From: Candidatus Aenigmatarchaeota archaeon
GTDB lineage: Archaea > Aenigmatarchaeota > Aenigmatarchaeia > QMZP01
Direction: 5' to 3'
Length of the DNA: 64,000 nt
Assembly (NCBI GenBank): GCA_043824495.1
Contig: JBDRSV010000024.1
Span: forward strand, 91,056 to 155,055
The translations under genes and the position numbers were made by a program. The notes beneath the pieces are model-generated. The model was not told where the DNA came from, did not search any database, and worked only from the letters and a program-made list of their open reading frames with translations. Positions 30,234 to 60,091 of the stretch are shown here, piece after piece. Each line of letters starts with the position of its first letter. The first letter of the stretch is position 1.

Positions 30234-30240
30234 TTGTTAC

Positions 30241-30273
30241 AGGGGATCCTGACCAATTCGGTTGGGATCCCTT
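30241..30273 (+). terminator. Hairpin terminator, duplicate of 29331-29361
   Basis: AGGGGATCC...GGATCCCTT, followed by the same CAACTTGACAAT box. Confidence 0.55.
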
Positions 30274-30333
30274 CAACTTGACAATTAACGTAACATGTTA
30301 ACAATGAATACCAACAGAGAAGGAGAAAGTCAA

Positions 30334-31947: not shown

Positions 31948-31975
31948 CCCGGGTAGGCTTCAACCCCTACCCGGG
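31948..31975 (+). terminator. Hairpin terminator CCCGGGTAGG...CCTACCCGGG
   Basis: 10 bp perfect stem. Confidence 0.6.
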
Positions 31976-31976
31976 G

Positions 31977-32028
31977 TTCCAAATGAGCTCATCTAGTTCA
32001 GATATTTTCTAGGTGGGCCCATTTGGAA
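31977..32028 (+). promoter_or_regulatory. Conserved intergenic hairpin element, copy 2
   Basis: TTCCAAATGAGCTCAT...AGGTGGGCCCATTTGGAA. Confidence 0.45.
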
Positions 32029-32092
32029 TTGTAAATGATTGTTGACTGTTCAATGAGCGTTCCGAAAGGAACATTGCAAGGAGATTTTTATC

Positions 32093-32557: not shown

Positions 32558-32579
32558 GTCCGCGACATCACCAACCAAT

Positions 32580-32612
32580 CCCGGGAACAAGACAGTTCAA
32601 TCTGTTCCCGGG
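32580..32612 (+). terminator. Hairpin terminator CCCGGGAACA...TGTTCCCGGG
   Basis: 10 bp perfect stem. Confidence 0.6.
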
Positions 32613-32665
32613 TTCCAAATGAGTTCATGTGGTTTGATTTCTTGACTAGGTGGGCTCATTTGGAA
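32613..32665 (+). promoter_or_regulatory. Conserved intergenic hairpin element, copy 3
   Basis: TTCCAAATGAGTTCAT...(TTGACT)AGGTGGGCTCATTTGGAA, with an 11 bp outer stem. Confidence 0.45.
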
Positions 32666-32757
32666 TTGAGTTGTAGTAGAACCATAACCCATTCACGACC
32701 TTTTGTCGACCCTGTCTGATATCAGTTCAGGGAAGAATCTAAAGGAAGGAGAATTCA

Positions 32758-34749: not shown

Positions 34750-34830
34750 GCGTGTAGTTATCATTCACACCCCGCCTGGATTCAATTCCAGGCGGGGTTG
34801 ATCATGAAATAAAGAGAAGGGGAGTGTACC

Positions 34831-35835: not shown

Positions 35836-35973
35836 AACCAACATTATCCTTTCAACATTTGATGGAGGACGGGTCATGAAACTAGTCTTAAATCGTAGGC
35901 ATCTTATAGATCCCGCCAGTGTCATTGGGCCACGCGTGAACTGGTTGTTCTCCTGAATGGCCAAGAGGTTCAG

Positions 35974-36222
35974 GTGCGTCCTATCGACCAGACGATAATT
36001 CTGATCGGACGCGATCCGGAATGTGACGTAATACTCGATAATCGCGCCGTCGACTTCTTCCATGCTCACATTGATTTCGGCGAGAATTTTGTAGTAATTG
36101 ACAACGTGTCACTCAACGGCACGTTTGTCAACGGAGAAAAGGTCGAGAAAGCGGTTCTCCGTCCTGGTGATGTGATCACAATAGCCAGGTATGAGATTCA
36201 CATCCGGTCCCTCCGGAAGTAG
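35974..36222 (+). CDS. FHA-domain protein (start uncertain; domain extends upstream of the annotated GTG)
   Basis: IILIGRDPECDVILDNRAVDFFHAHI...NVSLNGTFVNGEKV...PGDVITIARYEIHI is FHA-like. The frame is open back to 35899. Confidence 0.65.
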   Translation: MRPIDQTIILIGRDPECDVILDNRAVDFFHAHIDFGENFVVIDNVSLNGTFVNGEKVEKAVLRPGDVITIARYEIHIRSLRK

Positions 36223-39329: not shown

Positions 39330-42056
39330 TTATATTTTCTCTATTATTTTCTTCTCTTCTTCTGTTATCCCGTATATTCTATATATATATGAATCTATTT
39401 CTTTGTCAATTCTTTGTATCTCATTTTCTATATGTACTCTTCTATCCGTTTTTTTGTCACCTATCTCATTTAAACTGTTATTCATAGAAATTATTTTATC
39501 AACTAAGTTAATGACATCTTTCTCTGTTTCTTTACTAACTAGTTTAATAGGAAATTTCTTCGTATTAGCAATTAGTATTTTTTGGAATAGCCTTTTTGAA
39601 GGATCTAAATATTTCTCTTTATGGTAAAAAGTCATTAGCTTTGAGTTTAAAATTGCTAGAATATATTTAATTTGATCAGAACTACCGTTCTTGGGTATTA
39701 TATTAAATCCTATTTGTGTGTTATATAACTCCTTTTCGGTATATCCAGCGTATATTTTTGGAGGTTTACCACTGATAATCTGTCTCACGACTATACGAGG
39801 TTTTAAGAAAAATCTCTGTTCTCTGGGAGCGCCTAGCCATTTCCCATAACTAATATATTCTGTTTGGTTCCATTTTATACCATATCTTATAATGCCTGCT
39901 CCAGATAAGAGGGGTTTGAAAGTTTCATTCTTTTTTGTTTCTGAATGAAAAACTTTATTTTTTATTTGATCTTGTGTATGACCTTTGTATTTATCATAAG
40001 GTGTTAATCCTAGCGAGAAATCGCACAAATCTATCAAAGGTTTTGTACCTTCTTCAATCTTTTTAATTATTTTACTTATAGTAGGATTTCGAGATATATT
40101 GATAATGTTATCACGACTCCAGTCTAGTTGATTAAATGTTGTGTATGTATTGCAATTTTCTTTGTCTATGAAACTTATCTTTTCTTCACTAGGATAAATC
40201 AAAAGTTCACATTTAGTACTTTTTGTTGGCTTCTTTTTTTGGTATATGAGTATTATGGTCTCTACTTTAGCCTTCTCAAAAACATTATCAGGAAGTCTCA
40301 CAATCTTTTTAAGAGTCGCTTCGTTTAATAGTAATTTTCTTATTTTTGAATATGATTGATTATATAGGATTGAATTCGGTATAATAAAACCGAAGTATCC
40401 TCCATTCTTTAGTAGACGGAAAGATTTTTCAACAAAAACTGAGTACAGATTCATTCTATTTTCTACTGTTTCATATGCCGAAAATAAATATTTAACAATT
40501 AGAGGATCTAGCTGTTTTATATCTACATACGGTGGATTACCAATTATAATATCAAAGGAACCTCCTTCAAAATCGTCTATCCATTTAAAAGAGTCTAATC
40601 CAGCAACCTCTTCAGCATCTATTAAACTGTTTCCATGACATATATGAGTATCAATCTCTGTGGGTAGTTTTCTTCCCTTTTCTGCAGCCTTCAGTAATAA
40701 ATTCAGTTTTGTTATTTCTACTGCTTTATTGTCTAAGTCCACACCGTAAAAGTTATTCTTAAGCATGTGTGTTTTAACTGAATAAATTCCCTGATAATCT
40801 AATCTCATTTGTTTTGCTTCTGGTTTTTGCATCATACTATTCAACAAATGATCAAAAGACTTTATTAAGAATGAACCAGAACCACACGCAGGGTCTAATA
40901 TTTTAATTTCTAATGGCTTCGTTTTTTTATCTGTTATTAACTCTCCTAAAGTGTTTCTAATAATATAATCTACTACATAAGTCGGTGTGTAATAAATGCC
41001 TTGTTCCTTTCTATGTAGTCTCGAATCTCTTAATTGAGCTTTCCCTGATTTCTTTTGATCAAGAATTAGACCCAAGTATTGCTCATAAACTTGACCTAGA
41101 ACATCAGCATCTATCCAGTCAAAATTATAAATGTATGTTTTGTCTTTCGATTCGTATAAATAATAAATTAAATTTTTAATTATAGATCCGTTGATATTGA
41201 TTGTATCACAATCATTATCTCTCGATATAGCAAACAAACCACTGTTATATACATCATCATATGTTTTGAATATTTCCTTCAGTTTTGTGTAAGCTTTACT
41301 ATCATGTAGGTGTTTTATATCGCTAAGTATAACACCATCAGGATTTATGTTTATGTCTTCACAGCGTCGAATAAATATAAGTCTGTCTAGAATTCTCTGG
41401 ACTATATCATCCTTCTCATCAATAGAATACTTTTTTGCATAGGTTTTCTCAATGTCGCTAGCAATTAAACTTCTTATAAGCATCAAATCATTAAGCAGGG
41501 TTTTATCGATAGAAACCCTTTTCTTCAATCTACCTTCATCTTCAGCTTTTTTAAGGATAATATTTTCTTCAAAACTGTTTTTTGATAAGAAAAGCAAATC
41601 TTCAAAGCTGTTGATATAATCTTCTGGGGTATTGAAAACTCGGAATTTATTTCTTATAGAATTTTCTTCCTCTACACAAAATATTCTTGTTTCTTCAAAG
41701 TTGGTTGATACTGCAAAAGGTACTCTCTTTGATAGTGCATATGATATTACTTGTTTATCCGCTTCTCTATCTAAAGATACACCAACCTTTTTGACTTCAA
41801 GAAAGAAAACAGTTCTGCCATTAATCTTAAAGGCGTAATCTGCGCGTCCTCTTTGACTTCCTCTATGTGCTTGAGACTGTTTATCAAAATCATTTCGCTC
41901 CCAACCAAGCAACTGAAAAAGAGGTTCAATTAATCTAGTTTCTGTATCAGCTTCTGACAGTTTTTTATATGATTCTTTGTCAGCGTTGAATTCGTTAATT
42001 AATTTTTGAATTTCCTCCTTAATGATCTCTTTATCCATATAATTAGAATGAAACAA
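39330..42056 (-). CDS. Type IIG restriction-modification enzyme (N-terminal PD-(D/E)xK nuclease fused to gamma-class N6-adenine methyltransferase and target-recognition region)
   Basis: GRADYAF...FFLEVKK (D...ExK), LDPACGSGSFL (motif I) and IIGNPPYV (motif IV NPPY). 908 aa. Confidence 0.8.
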   Translation of the reverse strand: MFHSNYMDKEIIKEEIQKLINEFNADKESYKKLSEADTETRLIEPLFQLLGWERNDFDKQSQAHRGSQRGRADYAFKINGRTVFFLEVKKVGVSLDREADKQVISYALSKRVPFAVSTNFEETRIFCVEEENSIRNKFRVFNTPEDYINSFEDLLFLSKNSFEENIILKKAEDEGRLKKRVSIDKTLLNDLMLIRSLIASDIEKTYAKKYSIDEKDDIVQRILDRLIFIRRCEDININPDGVILSDIKHLHDSKAYTKLKEIFKTYDDVYNSGLFAISRDNDCDTININGSIIKNLIYYLYESKDKTYIYNFDWIDADVLGQVYEQYLGLILDQKKSGKAQLRDSRLHRKEQGIYYTPTYVVDYIIRNTLGELITDKKTKPLEIKILDPACGSGSFLIKSFDHLLNSMMQKPEAKQMRLDYQGIYSVKTHMLKNNFYGVDLDNKAVEITKLNLLLKAAEKGRKLPTEIDTHICHGNSLIDAEEVAGLDSFKWIDDFEGGSFDIIIGNPPYVDIKQLDPLIVKYLFSAYETVENRMNLYSVFVEKSFRLLKNGGYFGFIIPNSILYNQSYSKIRKLLLNEATLKKIVRLPDNVFEKAKVETIILIYQKKKPTKSTKCELLIYPSEEKISFIDKENCNTYTTFNQLDWSRDNIINISRNPTISKIIKKIEEGTKPLIDLCDFSLGLTPYDKYKGHTQDQIKNKVFHSETKKNETFKPLLSGAGIIRYGIKWNQTEYISYGKWLGAPREQRFFLKPRIVVRQIISGKPPKIYAGYTEKELYNTQIGFNIIPKNGSSDQIKYILAILNSKLMTFYHKEKYLDPSKRLFQKILIANTKKFPIKLVSKETEKDVINLVDKIISMNNSLNEIGDKKTDRRVHIENEIQRIDKEIDSYIYRIYGITEEEKKIIEKI

Positions 42057-44027: not shown

Positions 44028-45038
44028 ATGCTTATGAAAACGAAACAACTTACTTTAGATCGAGACTGGAGCCAATATAACTTGGCCCAAACACAGGAGA
44101 AACTTCTATTCATGAGAATACTGAGTGATGCCGTTAATTCCATGAATATAGAATATACATACAAAGGCAACGGAAGACCAAGCATAGGCATAGAGGACAT
44201 GATAAAAGTCCTCGTGATAAAGGTTTTCAACGGCTTCTCGCAGAGGAGGACAATACCAGATTTGTATATGGCTAAAGGTTTAGGCTACATACCTGAAGTC
44301 CCACACTTCAATTCCATAAGCAACTACTTCAACAGCACTGAATTGACTTATTATCTTGAGCAGCTCTACAGGATATTGGCTATGCCATTCATTCCTATAG
44401 AACAGTACTTTGCTATCGATTCTACTGGTTTTGGTAAATACAATACCAATTGGACTGCCAGCAAATATAAAAACGCAAGCATGAGAAGCTTCAACAAGCT
44501 GCATATAATATGCGGAGTGCGGACAAACATAATTGTGATAGCTAAAGTGACAGATGCACACCAACACGATTCTCTTCAGTTTCCTAAGATGCTTAAGGAG
44601 ACATGCAAAATATTCACAGTAAAAGAGATCTCTGCAGACAAAGGATATCTAGCACTCTATAATGTGAATGCAGCTAAAGAATTAGGCGTAGTACCCTACA
44701 TAATGCCCAAGAAGAACACAAAGTTATATTCCAAAAAGAGATGGGTGGATGGAGAGGCATGGGATAGAATGGTACTCATGTGGAGACATAAAGAGGAAGA
44801 ATTCAGAAAACACTACCATCTGAGATCGAATGTTGAGAGCAGCTTCTCAATGATGAAGAGGAAGTTTCTTCCTTTCATAAGGAGTAAGAACCCTATTGCA
44901 CAGAAGAATGAAATTCTGGCTAAGGTTGCTTGTCACAATATATCCGTTCTTGTCCACTCAATCTTTGAATTGGGTTTAAACATAGATTTTAAAAATATAG
45001 ATTCAACAGATGAAAGGAGGGAATATTATGACGCCTGA
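44028..45038 (+). CDS. DDE transposase, IS4/IS5 superfamily (DDE_Tnp_1-like)
   Basis: FAIDSTGF, ISADKGY and the Y-x2-R-x3-E-x6-K signature (YHLRSNVESSFSMMK). Confidence 0.85.
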   Translation: MLMKTKQLTLDRDWSQYNLAQTQEKLLFMRILSDAVNSMNIEYTYKGNGRPSIGIEDMIKVLVIKVFNGFSQRRTIPDLYMAKGLGYIPEVPHFNSISNYFNSTELTYYLEQLYRILAMPFIPIEQYFAIDSTGFGKYNTNWTASKYKNASMRSFNKLHIICGVRTNIIVIAKVTDAHQHDSLQFPKMLKETCKIFTVKEISADKGYLALYNVNAAKELGVVPYIMPKKNTKLYSKKRWVDGEAWDRMVLMWRHKEEEFRKHYHLRSNVESSFSMMKRKFLPFIRSKNPIAQKNEILAKVACHNISVLVHSIFELGLNIDFKNIDSTDERREYYDA

Positions 45039-45444
45039 AGAAGGGATGAAAATATTAAACCAGTATCTAAGTGATATGAATAAATTAAGGGAGAAAAGAT
45101 ATTATGAGGGTAAAGATGAATTAAACTTACTTGATAGAAAAATAAAAACTTTCATAAATAGAGTTTTCCCAGATTATGAAGAAAGGCAGAAAGACTATTA
45201 TAGAACTGTACATGCTTGGTTTATTGCTACAATGCATGAAGAGACAGAAGAAGAAAAACAAACGGATTACATGAATCAAATAAGAAAAATGACACTATTT
45301 GTCAATACTTTGTTGGATGAATTACAAGTTTTTGGGTTGGCATCAGAAAAATTTGGACCAACAAAAACTGAGACAGAAAAAGAAATAAGCGGTGGAATTC
45401 CAGGCATTCTAAAAGGTAAATACAAACGAACTAAAAGCGAATAG
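45010..45444 (+). CDS. Hypothetical protein inside the transposon right end
   Basis: 144 aa. Overlaps the transposase 3' end and ends 6 nt before the right TIR. Confidence 0.45.
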   Translation: MKGGNIMTPEEGMKILNQYLSDMNKLREKRYYEGKDELNLLDRKIKTFINRVFPDYEERQKDYYRTVHAWFIATMHEETEEEKQTDYMNQIRKMTLFVNTLLDELQVFGLASEKFGPTKTETEKEISGGIPGILKGKYKRTKSE

Positions 45445-45513: not shown

Positions 45514-46281
45514 ATGGAACCAATTATATGTTTTGGGCAACAGCCTAATGGAATATTTCCTAAGAATTTCTTTGTGGCTAAGATAGATTCAGCTAGAAAG
45601 CTTCAGCGGGAAATTGGTGGAAAAATAATATGGTTCTGTCACGATTCAGATCATGATCACAGAGAAACAAAAACAAGAATAGAATCTAATATGCATAAAG
45701 AAGGTTTTGTTGATCTTAACTTCTCGATTAAGAACAAAACCCAAAGGAAATATACTCCTTTATACCTAAAAGAAATAACTCCGGAATGGAAAGAAGAAAC
45801 AAGAAAAATTCTAGAAAGAATTGTTTCACTAGAATTGCTTATAATATTCTATTCTGTGAATGAAACAAGAGTAGCGGATTTCTGTATAGAGATGTATAAG
45901 AGAATGGGATTACTTGATGGTATAGATATTGTAAGAAGTAGTGATCCTAGGTTTAGAGAAGAAGCAGAGAAGCCAGAAGAAGAATTCATAGATGTGGAAT
46001 ATGATGGAGAAATAGTAAGAGCTAGGTGTATGAAAGATGGGTTATATTTACATGAAGGCGGAGATAGTTACAAGAAGATGGCGGATATGTGTGATTATTC
46101 AAAGAAACAAGTCTCCGCTGCTAGAGATTCTAGGTTTCCCTGGATGCAATCTGTAATTAAAGCAACTCATTATGTGTATGGAATGTCAGAGAAAGAATAT
46201 ATAAAGAAACAACAAATAGAGATGGTTCCTAGAGATGAAATAGATAAGAAAGATTTTGCATTTATTCAATTACTTAAATAA
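45514..46281 (+). CDS. Hypothetical protein
   Basis: 255 aa with backbone composition. No family recognised. Confidence 0.5.
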   Translation: MEPIICFGQQPNGIFPKNFFVAKIDSARKLQREIGGKIIWFCHDSDHDHRETKTRIESNMHKEGFVDLNFSIKNKTQRKYTPLYLKEITPEWKEETRKILERIVSLELLIIFYSVNETRVADFCIEMYKRMGLLDGIDIVRSSDPRFREEAEKPEEEFIDVEYDGEIVRARCMKDGLYLHEGGDSYKKMADMCDYSKKQVSAARDSRFPWMQSVIKATHYVYGMSEKEYIKKQQIEMVPRDEIDKKDFAFIQLLK

Positions 46282-46944
46282 ATCTAAATTAAGTTCTAGT
46301 GGTCTATCAACTATGAAGGATTCTCCATATTTAGAACCAATTAGACTACCTACACTTTGTCTATAGAAGCTTAGTCTATCTACAACACCTTCTGTTTGTG
46401 ATTTGTGACAATTTGCTAATTCTTTCCATTTCTCAAAATAGTCTGTTACATCACATACTAGATTAGGTTCTAGATGTCTTGGAATCATGTAATAAATTAC
46501 ATGTGGAACAAAATGATGATCATGGTCTAATTTGATATTCTTGAATTTAGCTAATCTCAGTGCATGTTTCACTATATTTCCTGTAGTGAAATGATCAGAG
46601 TGAGCTACTCCATCGTGATGCCCTGCATTGTTCTCATAATATGGAGCAAATACAATATCTGGTTTATGCTTTCTAATAACGGAAGCTATTTTTTCTCTAC
46701 TTTTATAATTGTCTTCTATTTGACAATCTTTGAAACCGAGGAATTCGAAAGAAGCTCCTGCGAATTTAGCAGCTTCCTCAACCTCTTTTTCTCGTATTTC
46801 AGGAGAACCCTTTGTCCCTGCTTCACCCTTGGTTAGTACAGCTAAGCTAACCTTGAAACCCTGGTCTACTAGCTTGAGTAGGGTCCCACCCATAGCAAAT
46901 TCTACATCGTCTGGATGAGCACCAAAAATTAGAACGCTTTTCAT
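46270..46944 (-). CDS. PIG-L/LmbE family N-acetylglucosaminyl deacetylase
   Basis: LIFGAHPDDVEFAMGGT (AHPDD motif) and HSDH. Confidence 0.8.
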   Translation of the reverse strand: MKSVLIFGAHPDDVEFAMGGTLLKLVDQGFKVSLAVLTKGEAGTKGSPEIREKEVEEAAKFAGASFEFLGFKDCQIEDNYKSREKIASVIRKHKPDIVFAPYYENNAGHHDGVAHSDHFTTGNIVKHALRLAKFKNIKLDHDHHFVPHVIYYMIPRHLEPNLVCDVTDYFEKWKELANCHKSQTEGVVDRLSFYRQSVGSLIGSKYGESFIVDRPLELNLDLFK

Positions 46945-47034: not shown

Positions 47035-49560
47035 TTATTTTATGATATGAATTGCAACTGATTTTTCATATCCTTTTATGAAATCTTCTACCATGTCTCT
47101 TGCTGTAGTGTCTGAATGTTGTATTGGTGGATGCTTCATGAAATAAGCTGATGGACCTTCTAAGTAGCCTCCGATACCTCTATCTTTTGCTATTTTTGCA
47201 CAGCGAATACCATCTATTACTACACCAGCAGAATTTGGAGAATCTTCTACAGAAAGTCTGAGTTCTAAATTAAGAGGAACATCTCCGAATTTTCTTCCTT
47301 CCATTCTAATGAAACAAATCTTGTTATCTTTCTGCCATGGAACATAATCACTTGGTCCAATATGAATATTTTCTGGTTCTAGTGGTATTGGTAATTGAGA
47401 CTGAACAGCTTCTGTCTTGCTGATTTTTTTGCTCTTGAGTCTTGATCTCTCAAGCATGTTTAGGAAATCTGTGTTATGAACTAATATGTTTGAACAAATA
47501 AACCGTTCAAATGGTTTTGTGCTTATGTCATAAACATACACATCTTTTAATTTTATTTTTCTAATGTTTTTTATCTTAAGGAAGCGAGTATCGCCTGTAC
47601 ATAATTGTTTAATTTTTTCTCTTTCAAACTCACTTTTAACTTTATCCAATTGAGAAAGAACTATATGAGTTCTAATTGATCCGTGTTTGTACCACGTTGT
47701 TGATTTTATTTTCCATTTTTTCAAAAGTTTTATATTTGGTATTCGATGTGTTCCATAACGTTTTAATTTATTATTAGTATTGAGCATTGCCTTTTTCTTG
47801 TAATCTTGTAAAAATCCTACTTTATTTATGAACAATTCCATATCAATTTTTGATGATATTAATCCATGCCAAGCATACCCTAGTTTGCTGTTATATGCAG
47901 TTCTAGTGCTACTATATCTTTCCTTGAAAATTGTTGAATTTATTCCTAATCTCAAAAACAATGTCTGTATATCATTCAAAAGGTCACGAGAAACAGATGT
48001 CCATCTTATCTGTTTTCCTGTAACACCACCATCACCACTTAAATAACCTCTTAAAACTAATGATATTTGTCTATCTGATAAATTAAAAATCCATTCTGGT
48101 ATCCGTTTTGTATAAGCATTTCCCCCTAAACCAATAGCTAACTTAAATATTTTAGACAATATTTTTGAATGAATCCTTACACTAATACCGTCATTTCTAA
48201 CGCTATATCCAATATTAAATCTATCTGTTAAACTATCTATAAGGTACATACACTCAGGTTCAGCACCGCATGCAATTTCTATATTAGATGAACCTTCTCT
48301 ATCATAATTACCATCTGCAATCCATAAACCAACCAACTGTAAAAGATCATCTGTAATTGGGAATTTAACAGGAATTTTTATTTCAGGATGACCACGGACA
48401 TTTATATGACCGTCTGATACACCATCAACTAATAATTTATTACTATATGGACTTAGATCTATACTTTCAATTTCTTCTGATTTAGCATGTGGTAACACTC
48501 TAGGAACAGCAATATACGTTTCATTTCCTTTTAGTATTTTTACAGGGATTTCATTTAATATACCGTCATCGCTTAATGTAAAGACATTATGATCCCCTGT
48601 GATTTTTATTGTCCTACCTTCTTCGGTAGTTATTTCATAAATAGGTTCAGATACCTTATGTCGTATTAGTGCATTTATATCTGATAGGACAACGTTATAA
48701 TTATCATTTATAGTAAAACATCGCATATTTTCATTAATTTCTTTCATAATTACAATGTCTTTTCCATCAGATCTTTTCTTACCATAAAGCTCCAAATAAG
48801 AGTCTATCAAATCTCCAATTTTAACCCGCTTTAATTGATTGTTTATAACTACAGGAACCTCCTGATCTCCTGTTACACTGTTCCCCCCAGTATTCAATTG
48901 ATATGTCCTATCAATCTTTATTCCTCTATCAGAGAATAACTTTGTTAAAACTCTATGTGTAATTGTTGCACCTAATTGACTCTTAATATCATCACCAATA
49001 ATAGGAATTCCTTTTTCCTTGAACTTATCACCCCATTCAGGATTTGATGCAATGAAAACAGGCATACAGTTAATGAATCCAACACCTGCATCTAAACAAG
49101 CTTGTGCATAGAACTTAGTTGCTTCTTCACTTCCAACAGGCATGTAATTAATTAGCACATCAGCCTGACTATCCTTCAACACTTGAACAACATCCACATT
49201 TTTTTTCCCTGATTTTTTAAATCTATTATCTTCAGGATAATTATTCATATGATCTGCTACACCATCTAACACAGGTCCCATCTGAACTTCCACTCCAATG
49301 TGAGGAACATCCTTATAAAATATAGTAGTGTTGTTAGGCTTTGCGAATATTGCTTCCGACAAATCTTTATCTACCTTTCTCTCATCAATATCAAAAGCAG
49401 CTACTGGTTTAATATCAGATATTTTATATTCACCTAGAATATTATGCATTAGACCTGATACTGGTTTACTAGAATCTACATCTTTGTAATAGAATAATCC
49501 CTGAACAAGACTAGAACAACAATTACCAACTCCAGCAAATGCAACCTTTATTTCTGTCAT
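47035..49560 (-). CDS. myo-Inositol-1-phosphate synthase interrupted by an in-frame intein
   Basis: Exteins (227 + 145 aa): [16 protein letters not shown]...YQLNTGGN | [23 protein letters not shown]... are typical of archaeal-type MIPS. Confidence 0.85.
47473..48879 (-). mobile_element. Intein (469 aa) with LAGLIDADG homing-endonuclease domain
   Basis: Begins with Ser (SVTGDQ...) and ends ...ILVHN, followed by Thr+1. [12 protein letters not shown] and [11 protein letters not shown] are LAGLIDADG-type blocks. Confidence 0.8.
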
Positions 49561-49626
49561 GTTTTACACCTGTAAAATAGTTGGTCAAGAAAGTATATAT
49601 ACTTTACGTGTGTAAATTATTCAATA

Positions 49627-49938
49627 ATGAAACCTTTAGAGAGACTAGAGAAATTGAATACAAGTGATTGTTTGTGGGTCTACATTCTTAGTATACTGAA
49701 TAAGACTCCTATGCATGCATATGCGGTAAGAAAAGAAGTGGAAAAAAGGTTTGGTTTTACACCAGGAAATGTGACATCTTACAAGGTTTTATATTTACTC
49801 AAAAGAAATGGTTATGTAAGTAAGAGTAAATATGGTAGAACAATTGTATACGACATAACTACAGATGGAAAGAAAGAACTGAAAAAAGCAGCAGGCTTCT
49901 ACAGAAGTCTTGCTCAAAAGCTTGAGGCGAGAAAATGA
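49627..49938 (+). CDS. PadR-family transcriptional regulator
   Basis: PMHAYAVRKEVEKRFGFTPGNVTSYKVLYLLKRNGYV. Confidence 0.75.
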   Translation: MKPLERLEKLNTSDCLWVYILSILNKTPMHAYAVRKEVEKRFGFTPGNVTSYKVLYLLKRNGYVSKSKYGRTIVYDITTDGKKELKKAAGFYRSLAQKLEARK

Positions 49939-50525
49939 CACTGTATAAGAAAAGAAAAAAATTCGATTCACATTCAAAAAAACTAGGATCGTTTTTCTCT
50001 AAGTTTGGTCTATCTCCAAATCAGTGGACTATGGTTGGTTTTATTCCAGCCATAATAACTGCTTATTTTCTGTATGTAGGAAGCTTGTCTCTAGCTGCTT
50101 TATTCTTCATAATTACTATAGTAGTTGATGTGATAGATGGTTCTGTTGCAAGACATATGGGAAAATCAACTAAACTAGGAGCATATTTGGACACTGTGGT
50201 TGATAGATATGTAGAACTCATAATCATCATAGGATTGCTATTCGTATCAATGCCTGTTATACTTCTACCCATGTATGCATGGATCTTCTTGTTCTTATTC
50301 GGATCAATGATGACTACGTATGTAAAAGCAGCTGCAGTTGAAAAGGGTTTAACTACAAAGGAAATCAAAGGTGGACTGCTTGAAAGAACAGATAGAATGG
50401 TTATTCTGCTGATTGGACTTCTTTTGGGTATAGTTAATCCATTATATTTGAGTTATGTTATTATCTTGTTAGCAATACTCACAAACATTTCTGCTTTACA
50501 AAGATTTTCTATTGCAACGAGTTAA
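49935..50525 (+). CDS. CDP-alcohol phosphatidyltransferase (candidate archaetidylinositol-phosphate synthase by context)
   Basis: DVIDGSVARHMGKSTKLGAYLDTVVDR matches D-x2-DG-x2-AR...G-x3-D-x3-D. Polytopic membrane protein next to MIPS. Confidence 0.75.
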   Translation: MTLYKKRKKFDSHSKKLGSFFSKFGLSPNQWTMVGFIPAIITAYFLYVGSLSLAALFFIITIVVDVIDGSVARHMGKSTKLGAYLDTVVDRYVELIIIIGLLFVSMPVILLPMYAWIFLFLFGSMMTTYVKAAAVEKGLTTKEIKGGLLERTDRMVILLIGLLLGIVNPLYLSYVIILLAILTNISALQRFSIATS

Positions 50526-50563: not shown

Positions 50564-50827
50564 ATGACAGATTTAGATCTCAGTGATTATTTAGTAGCTA
50601 GAACATACTTAACGGAATTTCCTGAAGATCCTACACATGAGGATATAGGGACACTTATTCAGCTGGCAGATTCTCATGACCATTTCGTGATAAGAGAAAG
50701 AGCTTATGATATCTTAGGCAGACTTGGATATCCTACTGAGTTACATGTAGCTGCAGTTGATCCTCATCTTGTTGTAAGAAAAACTGGAAATAGATGGTTG
50801 AATGAGTGGAAAGTGTTATATGTCTAG
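50564..50827 (+). CDS. Hypothetical protein
   Basis: 87 aa ORF. Confidence 0.35.
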   Translation: MTDLDLSDYLVARTYLTEFPEDPTHEDIGTLIQLADSHDHFVIRERAYDILGRLGYPTELHVAAVDPHLVVRKTGNRWLNEWKVLYV

Positions 50828-55362: not shown

Positions 55363-56547
55363 TTATTTCTTTGTGAGGATCTCAACTATGTCTCCATCCT
55401 TGAGCTCGTACTCTGCACCCACTTTCTTACGATCTGTCTTCATTCCACCTATGAATTTATCTGCTAAATCTGTGTGGATTTTTCCAGCGAACTGTTTCAA
55501 ATGAGTTCCTCTAGGAACTAAATGTACGTCTGGTAGAACATTTCCATCTTTATCTGTCATTTTACCTATGTTTGTAACTGGATAAACAGCTATCATATCG
55601 AGTGTTTCAAAAACAGTATGATTCAATATATTTTGTATACCAGTAGATTCATATTTAACAAGAATTTTTTCTTTTATGAACTCTAAAGCTGAGATTTGTT
55701 TTGGTGTTAGTCTATGCGCAACAACTATCTCAAAGTCTTTATCTCCTGGATTATATTTGATGAAACCATGCTCATTAGCTTCTCTTAAAGCTAGTTCACA
55801 CTCGGCTGTACATGGAATTATATGTTTATGTTTATCATGTAAAAGTTTGAAATTCTTCTGACCATCCTCTGTATCTATTTTATTTCCTGCTATCACAATA
55901 GGTTTGTTTCTTTTTCTTAGCTCACTTACTAAATGTATTAAATGATCTTCTTTTGTGTGCACTTCTATGTCTAATTTCTTAACTTCGTCTCTAACAGTTT
56001 CATAATCTAATTGTAAACCTGACAATTGTTCGTAAATTAAATCTTCTAGTTTTGCATCAGTTGTTTCAGCTTTTTTAGAGAGTTGTTTCCAGTTGTTTTT
56101 TAATATTTGAAACATCCAATAATCTATTTCTCTAGGTAAGAAATGGATATCTTCTTCAGGATCATGCGAACCTGCTTTTACAGGATTACCTTCCCCGTCT
56201 GTTCCTCCAGATAGATCAACTACATGAATTAGTCCTGATGCTGTCATAATGTCTGTTAGAAATTGATTACCTAAACCCTTTCCCTTATGTGCATCCGGAA
56301 CAAGTCCTGCTATGTCTATAAGTCTGACTGGTATGTATCTAATTCCGTCAATACATTTAGAATTCTTAGGCTTGCAAGTAACTCCTTGTGTCTTACAAGG
56401 ACATTCTGCTGTTACGTAAGCAACACCTTGGTTAGGTTTGATTGTTGTGAATATTCTGTTGCTTATTTCTATGTCTATCAGAGTAGCTGCTTTGAAGAAT
56501 GTTGATTTACCTGTGTTTGATTTACCTACAACCCCTATTTGGATCAT
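55363..56547 (-). CDS. Obg-like GTPase/ATPase (YchF/Drg-type) with C-terminal TGS-like domain
   Basis: GVVGKSNTGKSTFF (G1), DIAGLV (G3), AGNKID (G4) and a C-terminal ...LKDGDIVEI. Confidence 0.8.
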   Translation of the reverse strand: MIQIGVVGKSNTGKSTFFKAATLIDIEISNRIFTTIKPNQGVAYVTAECPCKTQGVTCKPKNSKCIDGIRYIPVRLIDIAGLVPDAHKGKGLGNQFLTDIMTASGLIHVVDLSGGTDGEGNPVKAGSHDPEEDIHFLPREIDYWMFQILKNNWKQLSKKAETTDAKLEDLIYEQLSGLQLDYETVRDEVKKLDIEVHTKEDHLIHLVSELRKRNKPIVIAGNKIDTEDGQKNFKLLHDKHKHIIPCTAECELALREANEHGFIKYNPGDKDFEIVVAHRLTPKQISALEFIKEKILVKYESTGIQNILNHTVFETLDMIAVYPVTNIGKMTDKDGNVLPDVHLVPRGTHLKQFAGKIHTDLADKFIGGMKTDRKKVGAEYELKDGDIVEILTKK

Positions 56548-56582
56548 ATGATATATTTATTTAGTAAATTTAAAAACGATTC

Positions 56583-56951
56583 ATGGGCTTCAATTCCGGT
56601 AACCAGTTCAGAATTGCAGGTATACTTTTGATATTGGAAACTATAGCTCTTCTATATTTCTCTATCGTTCCGTATGCATCTATAGACACTGGGATAGAAG
56701 CATTGCGCCTCGGAGACTTCGAACACTTGATGGCTTATCTCATCTATGCTCTTTTAGCTGAGCGAGTATTAAGTCAGACAAAATTCAAGAAGCATAGAGT
56801 TATACTAGCATTCTTAATTGCAGCAGCTTTTGGTGGAATAAATGAGGTTATACAATCTTTCATTCCTTTGAGAGAAGCAGATATGATTGATTTAGCCTTT
56901 GATACTGTTGGTTCTGTCATCGGTAGCTTTTTGCTTGGTCTTAAGAAATGA
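56583..56951 (+). CDS. VanZ-like membrane protein
   Basis: GGINEVIQSFIPLREADMIDLAFDTVGSVIGS. Confidence 0.65.
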   Translation: MGFNSGNQFRIAGILLILETIALLYFSIVPYASIDTGIEALRLGDFEHLMAYLIYALLAERVLSQTKFKKHRVILAFLIAAAFGGINEVIQSFIPLREADMIDLAFDTVGSVIGSFLLGLKK

Positions 56952-56966
56952 TTTTTTATAACCTTC

Positions 56967-56990
56967 TATATCCCTTTAAATAGACAATAT
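56967..56990 (+). repeat. Junction motif copy g (TATATCCCTTTAAATAGACAATAT)
   Basis: Read directly from the sequence. VanZ stop plus a T-run on the left, GC-rich block I6 on the right. Confidence 0.9.
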
Positions 56991-56991
56991 A

Positions 56992-57032
56992 AAGGGGAAA
57001 GTGTGATTGGTGGTCACACTTTTTCTCCCCTT
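56992..57032 (-). terminator. Hairpin downstream of the last gene of block I6
   Basis: AAGGGGAAAGTGTGA (56992-57006) pairs with TCACACTTTTTCTCCCCTT (57014-57032), with bulges. Confidence 0.55.
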
Positions 57033-57063
57033 GTAGCACCCGGAGAAGCTGCTCGCGTTGCAG

Positions 57064-57528
57064 TTAATCGTCGAGGTCGAGATCCTGAATGGGACCGTCT
57101 GCGGGATCGATCGCCTTGTCGGTACATGTGAACTCATTGCCGTGACCCTCACCGAAGTTGGCTCGGGCCGTGATCTGGAACGTGCCGTCTGTTGACGCCG
57201 CGGGGACAATTGTGGTAGGCGAAGTAACCGCGAAGAACATTGTGTCCTTGGACCCACTGGCAGGAGCAGGTTTGAACTCGATCGTTGTGTCGCTGTCGCC
57301 ATAGTCGAAGCGGGCAGCGGGAGCCAATGAGCGAGTTAAACTGCTACTGCGAAAGGCTTCAATGCCTCCGGACAAACCGAGGTCGATAGCCTTGTCCCTG
57401 GCGATCTTCTCGATTGTTGTGCTTCTTACGTCTACTTTTACATCATTCAGAACTGTGTCCCCGAACTTCAGGTTGATTTTAATGCTGTCGGCCACGATAC
57501 CCCTCCGTTTCTGCGTGATCAATGTCAC
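57064..57528 (-). CDS. Hypothetical acidic protein
   Basis: 154 aa, ends ...DLDLDD. No signal peptide seen. Confidence 0.55.
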   Translation of the reverse strand: MTLITQKRRGIVADSIKINLKFGDTVLNDVKVDVRSTTIEKIARDKAIDLGLSGGIEAFRSSSLTRSLAPAARFDYGDSDTTIEFKPAPASGSKDTMFFAVTSPTTIVPAASTDGTFQITARANFGEGHGNEFTCTDKAIDPADGPIQDLDLDD

Positions 57529-57536
57529 GTCTGTGA

Positions 57537-58082
57537 TTAGTCCTTCTCAGCCTTCTGAAGTTTCAGACAAATGGTCTCACCGTCAGTTGCGTGGTCGTAG
57601 TCAAATGTAGTCGCAAATTTGGCGCTCCCGATCTTGATTCGAGCGTGAATCTGACACTTCTTGGGAATACTCGGGAGAGTTATCTCCCCACGAATGATCG
57701 TAGAGCCGCCTTCAGTGTCCTCATCATCTATCTTGAAGTAGACGATGGTCCCATTCGGAGTTGCGATACAGTCATCGCCGTGGCATACTTCGGCTTTGAC
57801 GGTGACTGAAGCACGAACAAAGTCGAGATCGAAATCGGTGTTCCCATCAGCCGTGTCATAATCCAGACGTGCTTCGTACAACTCGCCGTCGATTGTTACG
57901 AATGCTTCAAGCGATCCAGCCGCGAGGACGCCCATTAAGACGATGATACCGTTTTCTTTCACGGTGGCACGATTTTCTTCGCTTGCGTCGCCTGCGTCAT
58001 TACCAAATAATACTGAGATGCCTTTTGGTATTAGCTCAGTATCTTCGTAATAGGCGGTCAGTTGAAGTGTCGTTTTATCCAT
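57537..58082 (-). CDS. Hypothetical acidic beta-rich protein
   Basis: 181 aa. AAGGAGGG-type RBS upstream (the reverse complement of 58090-58100 contains GGAGGG). Confidence 0.55.
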   Translation of the reverse strand: MDKTTLQLTAYYEDTELIPKGISVLFGNDAGDASEENRATVKENGIIVLMGVLAAGSLEAFVTIDGELYEARLDYDTADGNTDFDLDFVRASVTVKAEVCHGDDCIATPNGTIVYFKIDDEDTEGGSTIIRGEITLPSIPKKCQIHARIKIGSAKFATTFDYDHATDGETICLKLQKAEKD

Positions 58083-58127
58083 TTATCCTTTGCCCTCCTT
58101 GTATGGTTTGCCTGTTCCATATAGGCG

Positions 58128-59030
58128 TTATAAACTGACTGTCACAAGAATGTGGTGTGACTTGTCCCCATATTCACTTTGGCGCATTGGCAAGAGCATT
58201 ACTCTACCAATCTTGCCTCCTATATAGTACCAGGAGGATTTAACACCGAACTCGTATCCGCCTCCGAGAAGAAGGAGGTATTTCCCATGCTGCCAGGCAA
58301 ACGCCTTGTCAGCACCGATTCCAACATTTCCGGATTTCGTATCACCGAAGGTCTCAAAGCCCAGGCCGTGGAAGAGGCCAACAGAACTAGAGAAGACCCA
58401 TTTACCCTTTCTGAAGTTCTGGTAGGCATCGAATCGTGTAGCTTGAATTCTTGCAGATCTCAGAAAACCGAGAACTGATGATTCTTTGTGATTAAGTTTC
58501 CATTCAAACCTGGTTCCAAAGTCCAAGTCCCACATGTTCTGGGATGGTTCGGTGATCCATATGGGACCGCCAGGAATGTACTCGGTTCCGGGAGCAATGA
58601 AATTGACAGTTCTCGTTCTCACCCAGATTCTTCGAGCCCCGATAGCAAGTCGAAATTTTCCAGGAAGAACTCCGAGAGCAAACCGAATATTCGTCGTTGT
58701 GGCGATTTTTTGGAAGTCGGTCTGTGCAGGTGGTACGCCTTCTGATTGAGTGTAACCACCGAGACCCATTAGAGTAAAGCTAGTCTCGGTACCCAGTGGG
58801 CGGAGAAGGAACGGGAGCTTGTACGAGGCTCCAGATTCTATTACCCAGAAATCTGTCCGCGAACCATACATCCCGTCTGTTGGGGTCTTGAGAATGTAGG
58901 TGAAGACTGACGAGTTGTCGTAAATTGGTGGTGGTTTGGCATCCACTTTCACCGGAGACACTACCACCACAAACAGTGTCACTGCTGCGATGATGTTACG
59001 CATCGAGACCCTCGCGATAACTTTATGCAT
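58128..59030 (-). CDS. Signal-peptide protein with alternating beta-strand pattern (outer-membrane beta-barrel-like)
   Basis: N-terminal hydrophobic signal (NIIAAVTLFVVVVSPVKVDA), with an aromatic/Gly-rich alternating pattern throughout. Confidence 0.5.
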   Translation of the reverse strand: MHKVIARVSMRNIIAAVTLFVVVVSPVKVDAKPPPIYDNSSVFTYILKTPTDGMYGSRTDFWVIESGASYKLPFLLRPLGTETSFTLMGLGGYTQSEGVPPAQTDFQKIATTTNIRFALGVLPGKFRLAIGARRIWVRTRTVNFIAPGTEYIPGGPIWITEPSQNMWDLDFGTRFEWKLNHKESSVLGFLRSARIQATRFDAYQNFRKGKWVFSSSVGLFHGLGFETFGDTKSGNVGIGADKAFAWQHGKYLLLLGGGYEFGVKSSWYYIGGKIGRVMLLPMRQSEYGDKSHHILVTVSL

Positions 59031-59263
59031 CGAAACCCCCTTGGCTGAACGCCGTGACCGAGTCTATAGAAATCTCTCTACTTCTATCTCAACACGAAAG
59101 ACGATTTACTTGACTTTCGTGATTAAGTGGTTACCTAAATACAAATACCAGCACTGAGATGAGATTAATCTTCTCAGATAAATGCTGGGTTAAAGGTGTG
59201 TTTAGTTGAAAAACATGAATATAGAGGATTCTTGATAATAAACTTTTAAAAAGTAGGTGAACC

Positions 59264-60091
59264 TTAAAATAGGCCGAATTTCTTCTTTTTGAACTGTTTA
59301 TAGAATTCTGTCTGAGTTTTGATGGTAAATGTTTGTGTTATTGAGATTCCCAATAACATTATTATTGCTCCTATTATTATGCTAACAGATCCTGATTGTA
59401 ATGCTTTGAATAGTTCTGCTTCACTTCCGCCCATCATTGCGGCTGGTCCCAATGCTAGTGCAATTGCTCCTAATAATGGTAATGAGAATATGAATAATAT
59501 TACCAACACAAGAAGTGTGATTATTATCCAAATTAAAATTACACGAAGAGGACTCTTTGTGACTATGTGGTAAGAGTCTTTTAGGGAATTGAGTATTCCA
59601 TTCTTCTTAATGACTAATGACTGTAAGCTGAAGAAGAACAGTATTGAGATTATTACAGATACTATGGTTGATAGAACAGGACCAGCAAATGGTATTGCTC
59701 CGGCTATGGTACTGAAAATCATTGATATTATTGATATTAGTATAACCAAACCTAAACCTGGTAAGAATTTAGAGTAACCAACACTCCAGCTCTTACTCAC
59801 TTCCTTTTCTTTATCGCTCTGATGTATAAGAGCTATTGTTAAGTATAGATTTAGTAATGTCCATACAGCAAACAAGAACACAAGTGAGACGATGAATCCA
59901 CCTAAACTAAACAGAGCAAGTGGGTTTATAGCAGCTTCAGTTATCACAGATAATATTGATTCTAAATTAGTTGCTGCGAGACCAAATGCTACTAAGAAGA
60001 ATACTAAATGGAGTATGAAAAATGGTAACCATCTTCGAGGTGAAAACCCGAATTTGAATCCCTTCTCCAATGCATCTCCATAATTGAGCAT
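59264..60091 (-). CDS. Polytopic membrane protein
   Basis: 275 aa with about 6-7 TM helices. AT-rich backbone. Confidence 0.6.
   Translation of the reverse strand: MLNYGDALEKGFKFGFSPRRWLPFFILHLVFFLVAFGLAATNLESILSVITEAAINPLALFSLGGFIVSLVFLFAVWTLLNLYLTIALIHQSDKEKEVSKSWSVGYSKFLPGLGLVILISIISMIFSTIAGAIPFAGPVLSTIVSVIISILFFFSLQSLVIKKNGILNSLKDSYHIVTKSPLRVILIWIIITLLVLVILFIFSLPLLGAIALALGPAAMMGGSEAELFKALQSGSVSIIIGAIIMLLGISITQTFTIKTQTEFYKQFKKKKFGLF

What the first reader, a model, noticed from the sequence alone, without database searches (positions are those of the whole stretch)
47035..49560. LAGLIDADG intein inside myo-inositol-1-phosphate synthase
The 841-aa ORF resolves into a 372-aa MIPS (…YQLNTGGN | [19 protein letters not shown]…) interrupted by a 469-aa insert (nt 47473-48879). 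The insert starts with Ser and ends with His-Asn, followed by Thr+1. It contains two LAGLIDADG-type blocks ([23 protein letters not shown]). The insertion falls in the conserved GGN-TDF region of the enzyme, typical of inteins targeting conserved sites. Inteins are mostly known from replication, repair and nucleotide-metabolism proteins, so a lipid-headgroup and osmolyte-pathway enzyme is an uncommon host as far as I know.
Basis: partly seen in the sequence, partly recalled or inferred. Interest (0 to 1): 0.6.

Follow-up and report, generated by a model that had tools for sequence, protein, structure and literature searches.

The report
Homing-endonuclease intein inside inositol-phosphate synthase
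An archaeal gene for the enzyme that makes inositol phosphate is interrupted, inside a conserved active-site motif, by a complete self-splicing protein element (an intein carrying its own homing endonuclease); the element type is ordinary, the host enzyme is unusual, and the same insertion is already in public metagenome data although I found no paper describing it.

Summary
ORF 47035..49560 (-) encodes an 841-aa precursor: a 372-aa myo-inositol-1-phosphate synthase (MIPS) split after Asn227 by a 469-aa insert (nt 47473-48879). The insert has every canonical class-1 intein feature: Ser1, block B T94-x-x-H97, block F Asp451, His468-Asn469 and Thr+1. It also has two LAGLIDADG motifs with their acidic residues (D189, D283). 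Removing it in silico restores an end-to-end MIPS match. An AlphaFold model (pLDDT 91.6) matches PI-PkoII, the TliVMA intein, PI-PfuI and PI-SceI.

The same intein at the same GGN|TDF site occurs in at least 65 protein clusters and 22 species-representative genomes. These are named as DPANN lineages (Aenigmatarchaeota, Iainarchaeota, Micrarchaeota), Altiarchaeales, Hadarchaeum and Hodarchaeaceae. Intein-free alleles, which already carry Thr/Ser at +1, are much more common among the closest homologues and are interleaved with intein-bearing ones. Intein and extein trees disagree. One endonuclease-deleted mini-intein and one degenerate copy exist. This fits an active homing cycle.

Its nearest relatives (24-32% identity) are Ser1/Thr+1 inteins in archaeal PilB-type ATPases and in proteins with reverse-gyrase-like and RNA-polymerase-A''-like junction motifs. 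My literature searches found no description.

Verdict: a real, probably functional intein; a new member of a known kind; moderate-to-low interest.

The parts
47035..49560 (-). Precursor ORF, 841 aa: MIPS N-extein, intein, MIPS C-extein
   Evidence: The identical protein is on an independent Logan contig, SRR26275509_35550.
48880..49560 (-). N-extein, MIPS aa 1-227, ending ...YQLNTGGN
   Evidence: Aligns to 1gr0 residues 14-233. Matches TIGR03450.
47473..48879 (-). Intein, 469 aa (protein aa 228-696): Hint splicing domain with a nested double-motif LAGLIDADG endonuclease
   Evidence: Pfam PF14890 and PF14528. AF2 model pLDDT 91.6, pTM 0.91. Foldseek top hits are PI-PkoII 2cw7 (E=2e-24), 7qss and 1dq3.
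47035..47472 (-). C-extein, MIPS aa 697-841 plus the stop codon. It begins with Thr+1 (codon 47470-47472) in [19 protein letters not shown].
   Evidence: Aligns to 1gr0 residues 233-367. Contains the SKKISK equivalent of the yeast FRSKEISKS motif with the essential lysines (direct reading).
48841..48879 (-). Intein block [14 protein letters not shown]. Ser1 is the N-terminal nucleophile.
   Evidence: S1 and V2 are invariant in 20 aligned family members. All 63 family members whose N-junction is present start with Ser. TIGR01445 intein_Nterm E=1e-8.
48577..48618 (-). Intein block [15 protein letters not shown], containing the TxxH motif (T94, H97)
   Evidence: T94 and H97 are invariant. Coordinates.
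48301..48345 (-). LAGLIDADG motif 1, [15 protein letters not shown], with catalytic Asp189
   Evidence: G184, W186, A188, D189 and G190 are invariant. Coordinates.
48022..48066 (-). LAGLIDADG motif 2, [15 protein letters not shown], with catalytic Asp283
   Evidence: G278, Y279, S281, G282, D283 and G284 are invariant. Pfam LAGLIDADG_3 covers protein aa 500-582.
47473..47541 (-). Intein blocks F and [24 protein letters not shown], with Asp451, His468 and Asn469
   Evidence: V449, Y450, D451, E458, R459, F460, C462, S463, H468 and N469 are invariant. Coordinates.
49561..49626 (.). 66-nt divergent intergenic region between the MIPS and PadR genes. It holds an A/T-rich TATA-like element (aaagtatatatac, about 49593-49605) and GGTG 7-10 nt before the MIPS ATG.
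   Evidence: Direct reading. Promoter function is inferred, not tested.
49627..49938 (+). PadR-family regulator, divergent from the MIPS gene (context)
   Evidence: Pfam PF03551 E=3e-11. A PadR homologue lies next to the intein-bearing MIPS in 13 of 22 related loci.
49935..50525 (+). Archaetidylinositol-phosphate-synthase-like CDP-alcohol phosphatidyltransferase, the consumer of the MIPS product (context)
   Evidence: NF040950 E=1e-40, 139.7 bits against a cut-off of 180. PF01066 E=3e-16. A homologue adjoins the intein-bearing MIPS in 16 of 22 loci.
46270..46944 (-). PIG-L / BshB1-like N-acetylglucosaminyl deacetylase, 90 nt downstream of the MIPS gene on the same strand (context)
   Evidence: PF02585 E=5e-28. 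TIGR04001 E=2e-45, below its cut-off.

Best explanation
This is a canonical (class 1) intein with a nested double-motif LAGLIDADG homing endonuclease. It is inserted between Asn227 and Thr228 (spliced numbering) of an archaeal inositol-3-phosphate synthase.

Shown here:
- The insert is in frame and its removal restores a contiguous MIPS.
- All splicing residues and both endonuclease acidic residues are present and invariant across the family.
- The predicted fold is that of solved bifunctional inteins.
- The element is confined to this one site in MIPS, and its distribution is patchy and incongruent with the host gene.

Inferred, splicing: after translation Ser1 makes an N-to-O acyl shift. Thr+1 attacks the resulting ester. 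Asn469 cyclises, assisted by His468, and releases the intein. An O-to-N shift then joins GGN to TDF, which rebuilds the conserved motif and gives active MIPS. MIPS feeds the neighbouring archaetidylinositol-phosphate synthase.

Inferred, homing: the freed intein acts as a site-specific endonuclease on intein-free MIPS alleles around ...GGNGGNAAY|ACNGAYTTY.... Repair from the intein-bearing copy then spreads the element. The native Thr at +1 in intein-free alleles is what makes the site usable.

Inferred, host: the organism is an uncultivated archaeon, probably a DPANN lineage near Aenigmatarchaeota or Iainarchaeota.
For: Structure of the precursor:
- ORF and junction coordinates.
- Pfam and NCBIfam intein, LAGLIDADG and MIPS hits.
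- The extein halves are contiguous against 1gr0 and TIGR03450.

Conservation and fold:
- Invariant S1, T94, H97, D189, K258, D283, D451, H468 and N469 in 20 diverse homologues.
- AF2 model pLDDT 91.6. Foldseek top hits are PI-PkoII, TliVMA, PI-PfuI and PI-SceI; the endonuclease core also matches I-DmoI.
- The profile hits PI-PkoII at E=2e-29.

Distribution:
- 65 clusters share the same site. All have HN before Thr+1, except one with Ser+1.
- 22 GTDB species-representative loci were found, all in MIPS.
- The 120 nearest intein-free alleles have N|T (118) or N|S (2) at the site.
- Intein-bearing alleles fall in 16 separate clades among intein-free ones, and the window's nearest extein neighbours are all intein-free.
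- Intein and extein NJ trees share 17 of 58 splits. Examples: P0016/P0064 extein 73% vs intein 41%; P0023/P0061 intein 69% vs extein 53%.

Selection and decay:
- The endonuclease core is at least as conserved as the Hint-N domain (column identity 0.68 vs 0.62).
- One endonuclease-deleted mini-intein (L022) and one degenerate copy (L023: ADG to ANG, SGDG to SVDG) exist.

Context:
- Neighbourhood with AIP-synthase-like and PadR genes recurs in 16 and 13 of the 22 loci, whose names span several phyla.
Against: - No experiment: neither splicing nor DNA cleavage was tested.
- Ser1/Thr+1 hydroxyl nucleophiles are generally thought less reactive than Cys (my own knowledge), so splicing could be slow or conditional.
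- The trees are simple NJ trees without support values, on metagenome-derived sequences. Mis-binning (for example the loci labelled 'bacterium' and 'Patescibacteria') and transfer of whole MIPS genes could produce part of the incongruence.
- Block F position 13 is Glu, not the common His. PI-PkoII and the TFIIB mini-inteins also show E at this position in the printed alignments.
- The MIPS extein scores 499 bits against TIGR03450, below that model's cut-off of 638. Enzyme identity therefore rests on Pfam, 1gr0 and the conserved motifs.
Confidence: 0.9

Rival explanations
1. The intein still splices, but its endonuclease is no longer active. On this view the element is a vertically inherited relic that persists only because imprecise loss would destroy an essential active-site motif.
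For: Degenerate and endonuclease-deleted copies exist in the family (L023 and L022). The window's copy is at most about 71% identical to any other copy found, so no recent transfer is visible. Endonuclease activity cannot be read from sequence.
Against: Both LAGLIDADG acidic residues and K258 are invariant in 20 diverse copies. The endonuclease core is the second most conserved segment, after Hint-C. Intein-free alleles are interleaved with intein-bearing ones. The intein and extein trees conflict.
Confidence: 0.2
2. The intein has been co-opted as a conditional switch. Splicing, and therefore MIPS activity and inositol-lipid synthesis, would respond to an environmental cue such as redox state, temperature or salt.
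For: The intein sits in the catalytic motif, so the precursor must be inactive. Two non-catalytic cysteines, C54 and C462, are invariant. Conditional splicing is proposed for other archaeal inteins in PMC4760082.
Against: Nothing here bears on this directly. Most close relatives lack the intein, which argues against a required regulatory role. The pattern is fully explained by selfish homing.
Confidence: 0.08
3. The insert is non-splicing, making the gene a dead MIPS (pseudogene), or it is a permanent domain insertion.
For: L006 carries a frameshifted copy, so inactivated copies can occur.
Against: In the window the ORF is intact. All splicing residues are present and invariant. The exteins are conserved at 70-77% to intein-free enzymes. 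The gene lies in a conserved MIPS / AIP-synthase / PadR module. No second MIPS copy is present in the window.
Confidence: 0.03
4. The structure is an assembly chimera that joins a MIPS gene to an unrelated intein-bearing gene.
For: The window has a strongly mosaic GC content. Some database MIPS entries are duplicated chimeras (P0066-P0069).
Against: The identical 841-aa protein is on an independent Logan contig. The same architecture, with exact junctions, recurs in 65 clusters and 22 genomes. The junctions are in frame on both sides.
Confidence: 0.01

Closest known systems
PI-PkoII (Thermococcus kodakarensis DNA polymerase intein 2; PDB 2cw7/2cw8)
   Same: It is the best solved match by sequence profile (E=2e-29) and by fold (Foldseek E=2e-24, TM 0.72). 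It has the same architecture: a Hint domain with an N-terminal extension, a double LAGLIDADG core, and Glu at block F position 13.
   Different: Only about 19% identical. It is 537 aa rather than 469 and its host is a family-B DNA polymerase. Its cleavage and splicing have been studied experimentally; this one is untested.
Ser1/Thr+1 'SVTGD' inteins of archaeal PilB/FlaI-type (T2SSE) ATPases, and of proteins whose junction motifs resemble reverse gyrase and RNA polymerase A'/A''
   Same: They are the nearest non-MIPS relatives in a 1.84-billion-protein library. They align over the full length at 24-32% identity and share block A S-V-x-G-D...HN and Thr+1 (Ser+1 in the RpoA''-like hit P0316). 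NCBIfam's RpoA'' model with its intein matches the whole 469 aa at E=1e-30.
   Different: The host proteins are ATPases or nucleic-acid enzymes, the usual intein hosts. Their insertion sites differ: VED|TPE, DPD|TEGE and others. The MIPS intein forms a separate, tight group: its one listed representative (P0006) scores 742 bits and the next hit 442 bits. Only the T2SSE hosts were confirmed by Pfam; the other host assignments rest on reading the junction motifs.
PI-SceI (yeast VMA1 intein), PI-PfuI, and the TliVMA and PhoVMA inteins
   Same: They share the bifunctional Hint plus LAGLIDADG fold and, by inference, the same splicing and homing mechanism.
   Different: They use Cys1 and Cys+1 (PI-SceI, from my own knowledge), have 11-20% identity, and differ in their DNA-recognition regions.
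Intein-containing tetraether lipid synthase Tes (NCBIfam NF045703)
   Same: It is a precedent for an intein in an archaeal membrane-lipid enzyme. Its endonuclease region matches this intein at E=6e-20.
   Different: It is a different host enzyme (radical SAM) at a different site, and only the endonuclease part aligns.

Membership tests
Class 1 (canonical) intein | In-frame insertion whose removal restores a contiguous, conserved host protein | tested here: met
   1gr0 aligns to aa 2-227 and 696-830 with chain residues 233/233 abutting. The spliced product matches TIGR03450 positions 1-355 of 355 in one stretch.
Class 1 (canonical) intein | Block A with Cys or Ser as first residue | tested here: met
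   Ser1 in SVTGDQ. It is invariant in the family. TIGR01445 is above its cut-off.
Class 1 (canonical) intein | Block B TxxH | tested here: met
   T94-G-D-H97, invariant.
Class 1 (canonical) intein | Blocks F and G: block F Asp, penultimate His, C-terminal Asn | tested here: met
   D451, H468 and N469 are invariant. Block F position 13 is Glu rather than His, as in PI-PkoII and the TFIIB mini-inteins.
Class 1 (canonical) intein | Cys, Ser or Thr as first C-extein residue | tested here: met
   Thr+1. Among the family's C-junctions, one has Ser+1 and all others Thr+1. Thr or Ser is also present in 120 of 120 nearest intein-free alleles.
Class 1 (canonical) intein | Hint fold | tested here: met
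   The AF2 model (pLDDT 91.6) superposes on mini-inteins at 1.9-2.8 A rmsd (5o9i, 7oec, 4e2t). Pfam PF14890 E=1e-20.
Class 1 (canonical) intein | Autocatalytic protein splicing | not testable with these tools
   Needs expression of the precursor and detection of the ligated exteins.
LAGLIDADG homing endonuclease (single-chain, double-motif) | Two LAGLIDADG helices, each ending in a catalytic acidic residue | tested here: met
   LVGLWIAD189G and LRGYLSGD283G, invariant. PF14528 E=6e-18.
LAGLIDADG homing endonuclease (single-chain, double-motif) | Pseudo-dimeric alpha-beta-beta-alpha-beta-beta-alpha core fold | tested here: met
   Foldseek matches the core to I-DmoI and I-Tsp061I (TM to target 0.63-0.68) and to PI-PfuI.
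LAGLIDADG homing endonuclease (single-chain, double-motif) | Site-specific cleavage of the intein-free allele, and homing | not testable with these tools
   Only indirect support is available: patchy distribution, tree conflict, and degenerate or deleted copies.
Myo-inositol-1-phosphate (inositol-3-phosphate) synthase | Membership by curated profile | tested here: inconclusive
   Pfam PF01658 scores 110.9 bits against a cut-off of 27, so it is met. TIGR03450 scores 499 bits against an equivalog cut-off of 638, so it is not reached. 1gr0 E=6e-125.
Myo-inositol-1-phosphate (inositol-3-phosphate) synthase | Conserved active-site motifs (equivalents of yeast YNHLGNNDG and FRSKEISKS with the two lysines) | tested here: met
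   YQLNTGGN|TDF and LKSKKISKT are present in the spliced sequence. The motif list is from PMC8287684, citing Basak et al. 2017.
Myo-inositol-1-phosphate (inositol-3-phosphate) synthase | Conversion of glucose-6-phosphate to inositol phosphate | not testable with these tools
   Needs an enzyme assay of the spliced protein.

The most novel reading that the evidence does not exclude
The MIPS intein may be more than a selfish passenger. It could be a natural intein that uses only hydroxyl nucleophiles (Ser1/Thr+1) and acts as a conditional post-translational gate on inositol-lipid head-group synthesis in DPANN and other uncultivated archaea. It could also document a jump of a Ser1/Thr+1 intein lineage from ATPase and nucleic-acid enzymes into a lipid-pathway enzyme, through a site that happens to offer ...(D/N)|T(D/E/P)....
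Probability: 0.08. Interest if true: 0.55.

Novelty: new member of a known kind. Interest (0 to 1): 0.33.

Why it matters
- It adds a lipid and osmolyte pathway enzyme (COG category I) to a host list that PMC4760082 reports as about 75% replication, repair and nucleotide-metabolism proteins in archaea.
- The family displays, within one data set, all four states of the homing-cycle model: an intact endonuclease, a degenerate endonuclease, a mini-intein, and an empty site with the native Thr.
- The family could serve as a compact natural system for studying intein gain and loss in uncultivated archaea.
- It could be a source of inteins that splice with Ser and Thr nucleophiles in a GGN/TDF context.
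- For annotation: NCBI names several of these proteins only 'LAGLIDADG family homing endonuclease' or 'hypothetical protein'. This hides a MIPS gene in genomes where lipid-pathway capacity is a debated question (DPANN); that it is debated is from my own knowledge.

Tried and rejected
- Possible mini-inteins or a second insertion site. P0066-P0069 are long MIPS entries (495-590 aa) with no intein Pfam domain. BLAST shows they are partial tandem duplications or chimeric assemblies of MIPS, not inteins.
- Intein-only search of the 5.8-billion-protein word index. It was useful only for pointing to a TadA/T2SSE ATPase intein at 34% identity. The exhaustive representative search replaced it.
- Literature. 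Four searches combining intein with MIPS, inositol or DPANN terms found no description of a MIPS intein. The supplement of Novikova et al. is not held, so their full host list could not be checked.
- Taxonomic placement from the window. There is no rRNA, other Rfam family or tRNA in the 64 kb. Placement therefore rests on the source names of the best protein hits.
- Geometry of the invariant cysteines C54 and C462 and of the splice junction. Model coordinates are not exposed to the script environment.
- Bacterial promoter and terminator scan around the gene. Counts do not exceed shuffled controls, and the models are not applicable to an archaeon.
- Other copies in the window. There is no second MIPS copy and no second intein of this family.
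Full report
**1. The observation**

The minus-strand ORF 47035..49560 encodes 841 aa. The sequence ...YQLNTGGN is followed by SVTGDQ... at residue 228. The sequence ...ILVHN ends at residue 696 and is followed by [19 protein letters not shown].... The insert is therefore 469 aa, nt 47473-48879, and the joined exteins are 372 aa.

Pfam finds three families above their curated cut-offs:
- Inos-1-P_synth, in two pieces, E=4e-32
- Intein_splicing, E=5e-20
- LAGLIDADG_3, E=6e-18

M. tuberculosis Ino1 (PDB 1gr0) aligns to residues 2-227 (chain 14-233) and 696-830 (chain 233-367). Nothing of the host enzyme is missing or duplicated at the junction. The in-silico spliced protein matches the NCBIfam inositol-3-phosphate synthase model over all 355 positions in one stretch. 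Its score is 499 bits, below that model's cut-off of 638.

**2. Anatomy of the insert**

The canonical splicing blocks are all present:
- Block [14 protein letters not shown], with Ser1
- Block [15 protein letters not shown], with T94 and H97
- Block [19 protein letters not shown], with D451
- Block G, ILVHN, with H468 and N469
- Thr+1 in the C-extein

Between blocks B and F lie two LAGLIDADG motifs, LVGLWIAD189G and LRGYLSGD283G, and a conserved Lys258. In an alignment of 20 diverse family members (40-70% identical to the window copy) every one of these residues is invariant.

An AlphaFold2 model built on that alignment is confident, with pLDDT 91.6 and pTM 0.91. Its best PDB matches are bifunctional inteins: PI-PkoII (E=2e-24), the TliVMA intein, PI-PfuI and PI-SceI. 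Mini-inteins superpose on the Hint part at about 2 A rmsd. I-DmoI superposes on the endonuclease core. A sequence profile gives the same ranking, with PI-PkoII at E=2e-29.

**3. Position in the enzyme**

The insertion splits QLNTGGN|TDF, the equivalent of yeast YNHLGN|NDG. It lies 13 residues before SKKISK, the equivalent of FRSKEISKS with the essential lysines. PMC8287684, citing Basak et al. 2017, lists both motifs among the most conserved active-site motifs of MIPS. The precursor should therefore be inactive until it is spliced; this is an inference.

**4. The element elsewhere**

A search with the whole precursor found 65 clusters (at 90% identity) with the same architecture. All have the insert at the same site. 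All copies whose N-junction is present begin with Ser, and all end in HN followed by Thr, except one with Ser. Source names include Aenigmarchaeota, Altiarchaeales, Hadarchaeum, Hodarchaeaceae and Bilamarchaeaceae. JGI names some of them 'myo-inositol-1-phosphate synthase/intein/homing endonuclease'. NCBI mostly names them 'LAGLIDADG family homing endonuclease' or 'hypothetical protein'.

A scan of one genome per GTDB species found 22 loci. All are in MIPS at this site. Their record titles name Iainarchaeum, Aenigmatarchaeota, Micrarchaeota, Altiarchaeales, Bilamarchaeaceae, Hodarchaeaceae and Hadarchaeum. Two bins are labelled bacterial and may be mis-binned.

In an exhaustive search of 1.84 billion 50%-identity representatives, only one listed hit (P0006, 742 bits) has the length and match position of a MIPS precursor. 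The next hit scores 442 bits. The MIPS intein is thus a tight, distinct group.

**5. Evidence for a homing cycle**

The 120 closest homologues of the spliced extein are all intein-free, at 70-77% identity, and several are named Aenigmarchaeota or Nanoarchaeota. They read N|T (118) or N|S (2) at the site. The +1 nucleophile is therefore the enzyme's native residue.

In an NJ tree of exteins, the intein-bearing alleles form 16 separate clades among the intein-free ones. The window's nearest neighbours are all intein-free.

Intein and extein NJ trees share only 17 of 58 splits, and intein clusters cut across extein clusters. Examples:
- P0016 vs P0064: extein 73%, intein 41%
- P0054 vs P0055: extein 93%, intein 65%
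- P0023 vs P0061: intein 69%, extein 53%

The endonuclease core is more conserved than the N-terminal Hint part, with column identity 0.68 against 0.62. L022 carries a clean deletion of the whole LAGLIDADG core, leaving a 255-aa mini-intein. L023 has ADG changed to ANG, SGDG changed to SVDG, and a further deletion. L006 is frameshifted.

Together these are the states expected from repeated invasion, decay and loss. The trees are crude, and whole-gene transfer or mis-binning may contribute to the conflict.

**6. Nearest relatives among inteins**

After the MIPS group, the best-scoring proteins are multi-intein archaeal T2SSE (PilB/FlaI/TadA-type) ATPases (also P0125). Full-length matches of 24-32% identity all begin S-V-x-G-D and end HN|T (HN|S in P0316). 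They sit in these sites:
- VED|TPE, in T2SSE ATPases
- DPD|TEGEKI, a TOPRIM-type motif like that of reverse gyrase
- RNA polymerase A'/A''-like motifs

The non-T2SSE host assignments come from reading the junction motifs, not from domain searches. NCBIfam's RpoA'' model matches the whole insert at E=1e-30. The MIPS intein therefore belongs to a broad archaeal clade of Ser1/Thr+1 LAGLIDADG inteins. Its unusual feature is the host.

**7. Genomic context**

The organism is an archaeon: genes for ribosomal proteins L7Ae, S28e and L24e lie nearby.

The MIPS gene is flanked by three relevant genes:
- a divergent PadR regulator
- an archaetidylinositol-phosphate-synthase-like gene (NF040950, E=1e-40)
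- a co-directional PIG-L / BshB1-like deacetylase

AIP-synthase and PadR homologues adjoin the intein-bearing MIPS in 16 and 13 of the 22 loci. This argues that the gene is a working part of an inositol head-group module. The window has no second MIPS copy and no second intein of this family.

**8. What is known**

Four full-text searches found no paper that links inteins with MIPS. Novikova et al. report that 66.9% of archaeal intein hosts fall in COG category L and 8.3% in F. They do not mention inositol. Their supplement could not be read. NCBIfam has 'exception' models for intein-bearing GyrA, RtcB and Tes, but none matched here as an intein-bearing MIPS.

**9. Verdict**

The finding is real and correctly interpreted. 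It is a standard kind of element in an uncommon host. It is already present, and partly auto-annotated, in public data, but I found no published description. I rate it a new member of a known kind, with interest about 0.33.

The main unknowns are experimental. Does it splice, and how fast or conditionally with hydroxyl nucleophiles? Is the endonuclease still active?

Noticed in passing
window 1-3000, 14000-24000, 28000-36000, 56000-60000: GC content is strongly mosaic. Blocks of 42-52% GC are embedded in a background of about 33%. The 28-36 kb block holds five ORFs of 233-663 aa with no Pfam match. The 17.7-19.6 kb ORF has FlgD-Ig, SdrD-B and Por_Secre_tail domains, which are typical of bacterial surface proteins. 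ORF 868-2388 is an M32 carboxypeptidase. These blocks could be foreign islands or an assembly chimera.
   Followed up: partly
window 46270-46944 (-), 47035-49560 (-), 49627-50525 (+): MIPS, an archaetidylinositol-phosphate-synthase-like gene, a PIG-L/BshB1-like deacetylase and a PadR regulator are clustered. The MIPS / AIP-synthase / PadR part recurs in related loci. This suggests synthesis of an inositol, and possibly glucosaminyl-inositol, lipid head group in what is probably a DPANN archaeon. DPANN archaea are usually considered poor in lipid biosynthesis (my own knowledge).
   Followed up: partly
window 44028-45038 (+) and 39330-42056 (-): A DDE_Tnp_1 (IS4-like) transposase ORF and a 908-aa MmeI/Eco57I-type fused restriction-modification enzyme lie just beside the MIPS neighbourhood.
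   Followed up: no
window 45514-46281 (+), 45010-45444 (+), 50564-50827 (+): Three ORFs adjacent to the inositol module (255, 144 and 87 aa) have no Pfam or NCBIfam match. The 255-aa ORF overlaps the 3' end of the PIG-L gene by 12 nt, convergently.
   Followed up: no
L022 1619-2383; L023 3001-4308; L006 2420-3830: Natural derivatives of the same intein were found: a 255-aa mini-intein with the LAGLIDADG core cleanly deleted (L022), a copy with mutated LAGLIDADG motifs and a deletion (L023), and a frameshifted copy (L006). L022 and L014 come from bins labelled Patescibacteria and 'bacterium', which are probably mis-binned archaeal contigs.
   Followed up: partly
P0066-P0069 (database proteins, not in the window): These MIPS entries of 495-590 aa contain partial tandem repeats of the MIPS sequence. 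They are probably assembly or gene-calling artefacts.
   Followed up: yes
P0251-P0259, P0289 (database proteins): These archaeal T2SSE/PilB-type ATPases of 981-2140 aa carry one to three Ser1/Thr+1 LAGLIDADG inteins related to the MIPS intein (Pfam Intein_splicing stretches). At least P0254, P0256, P0259 and P0289 have one at a VED|TPE site.
   Followed up: partly
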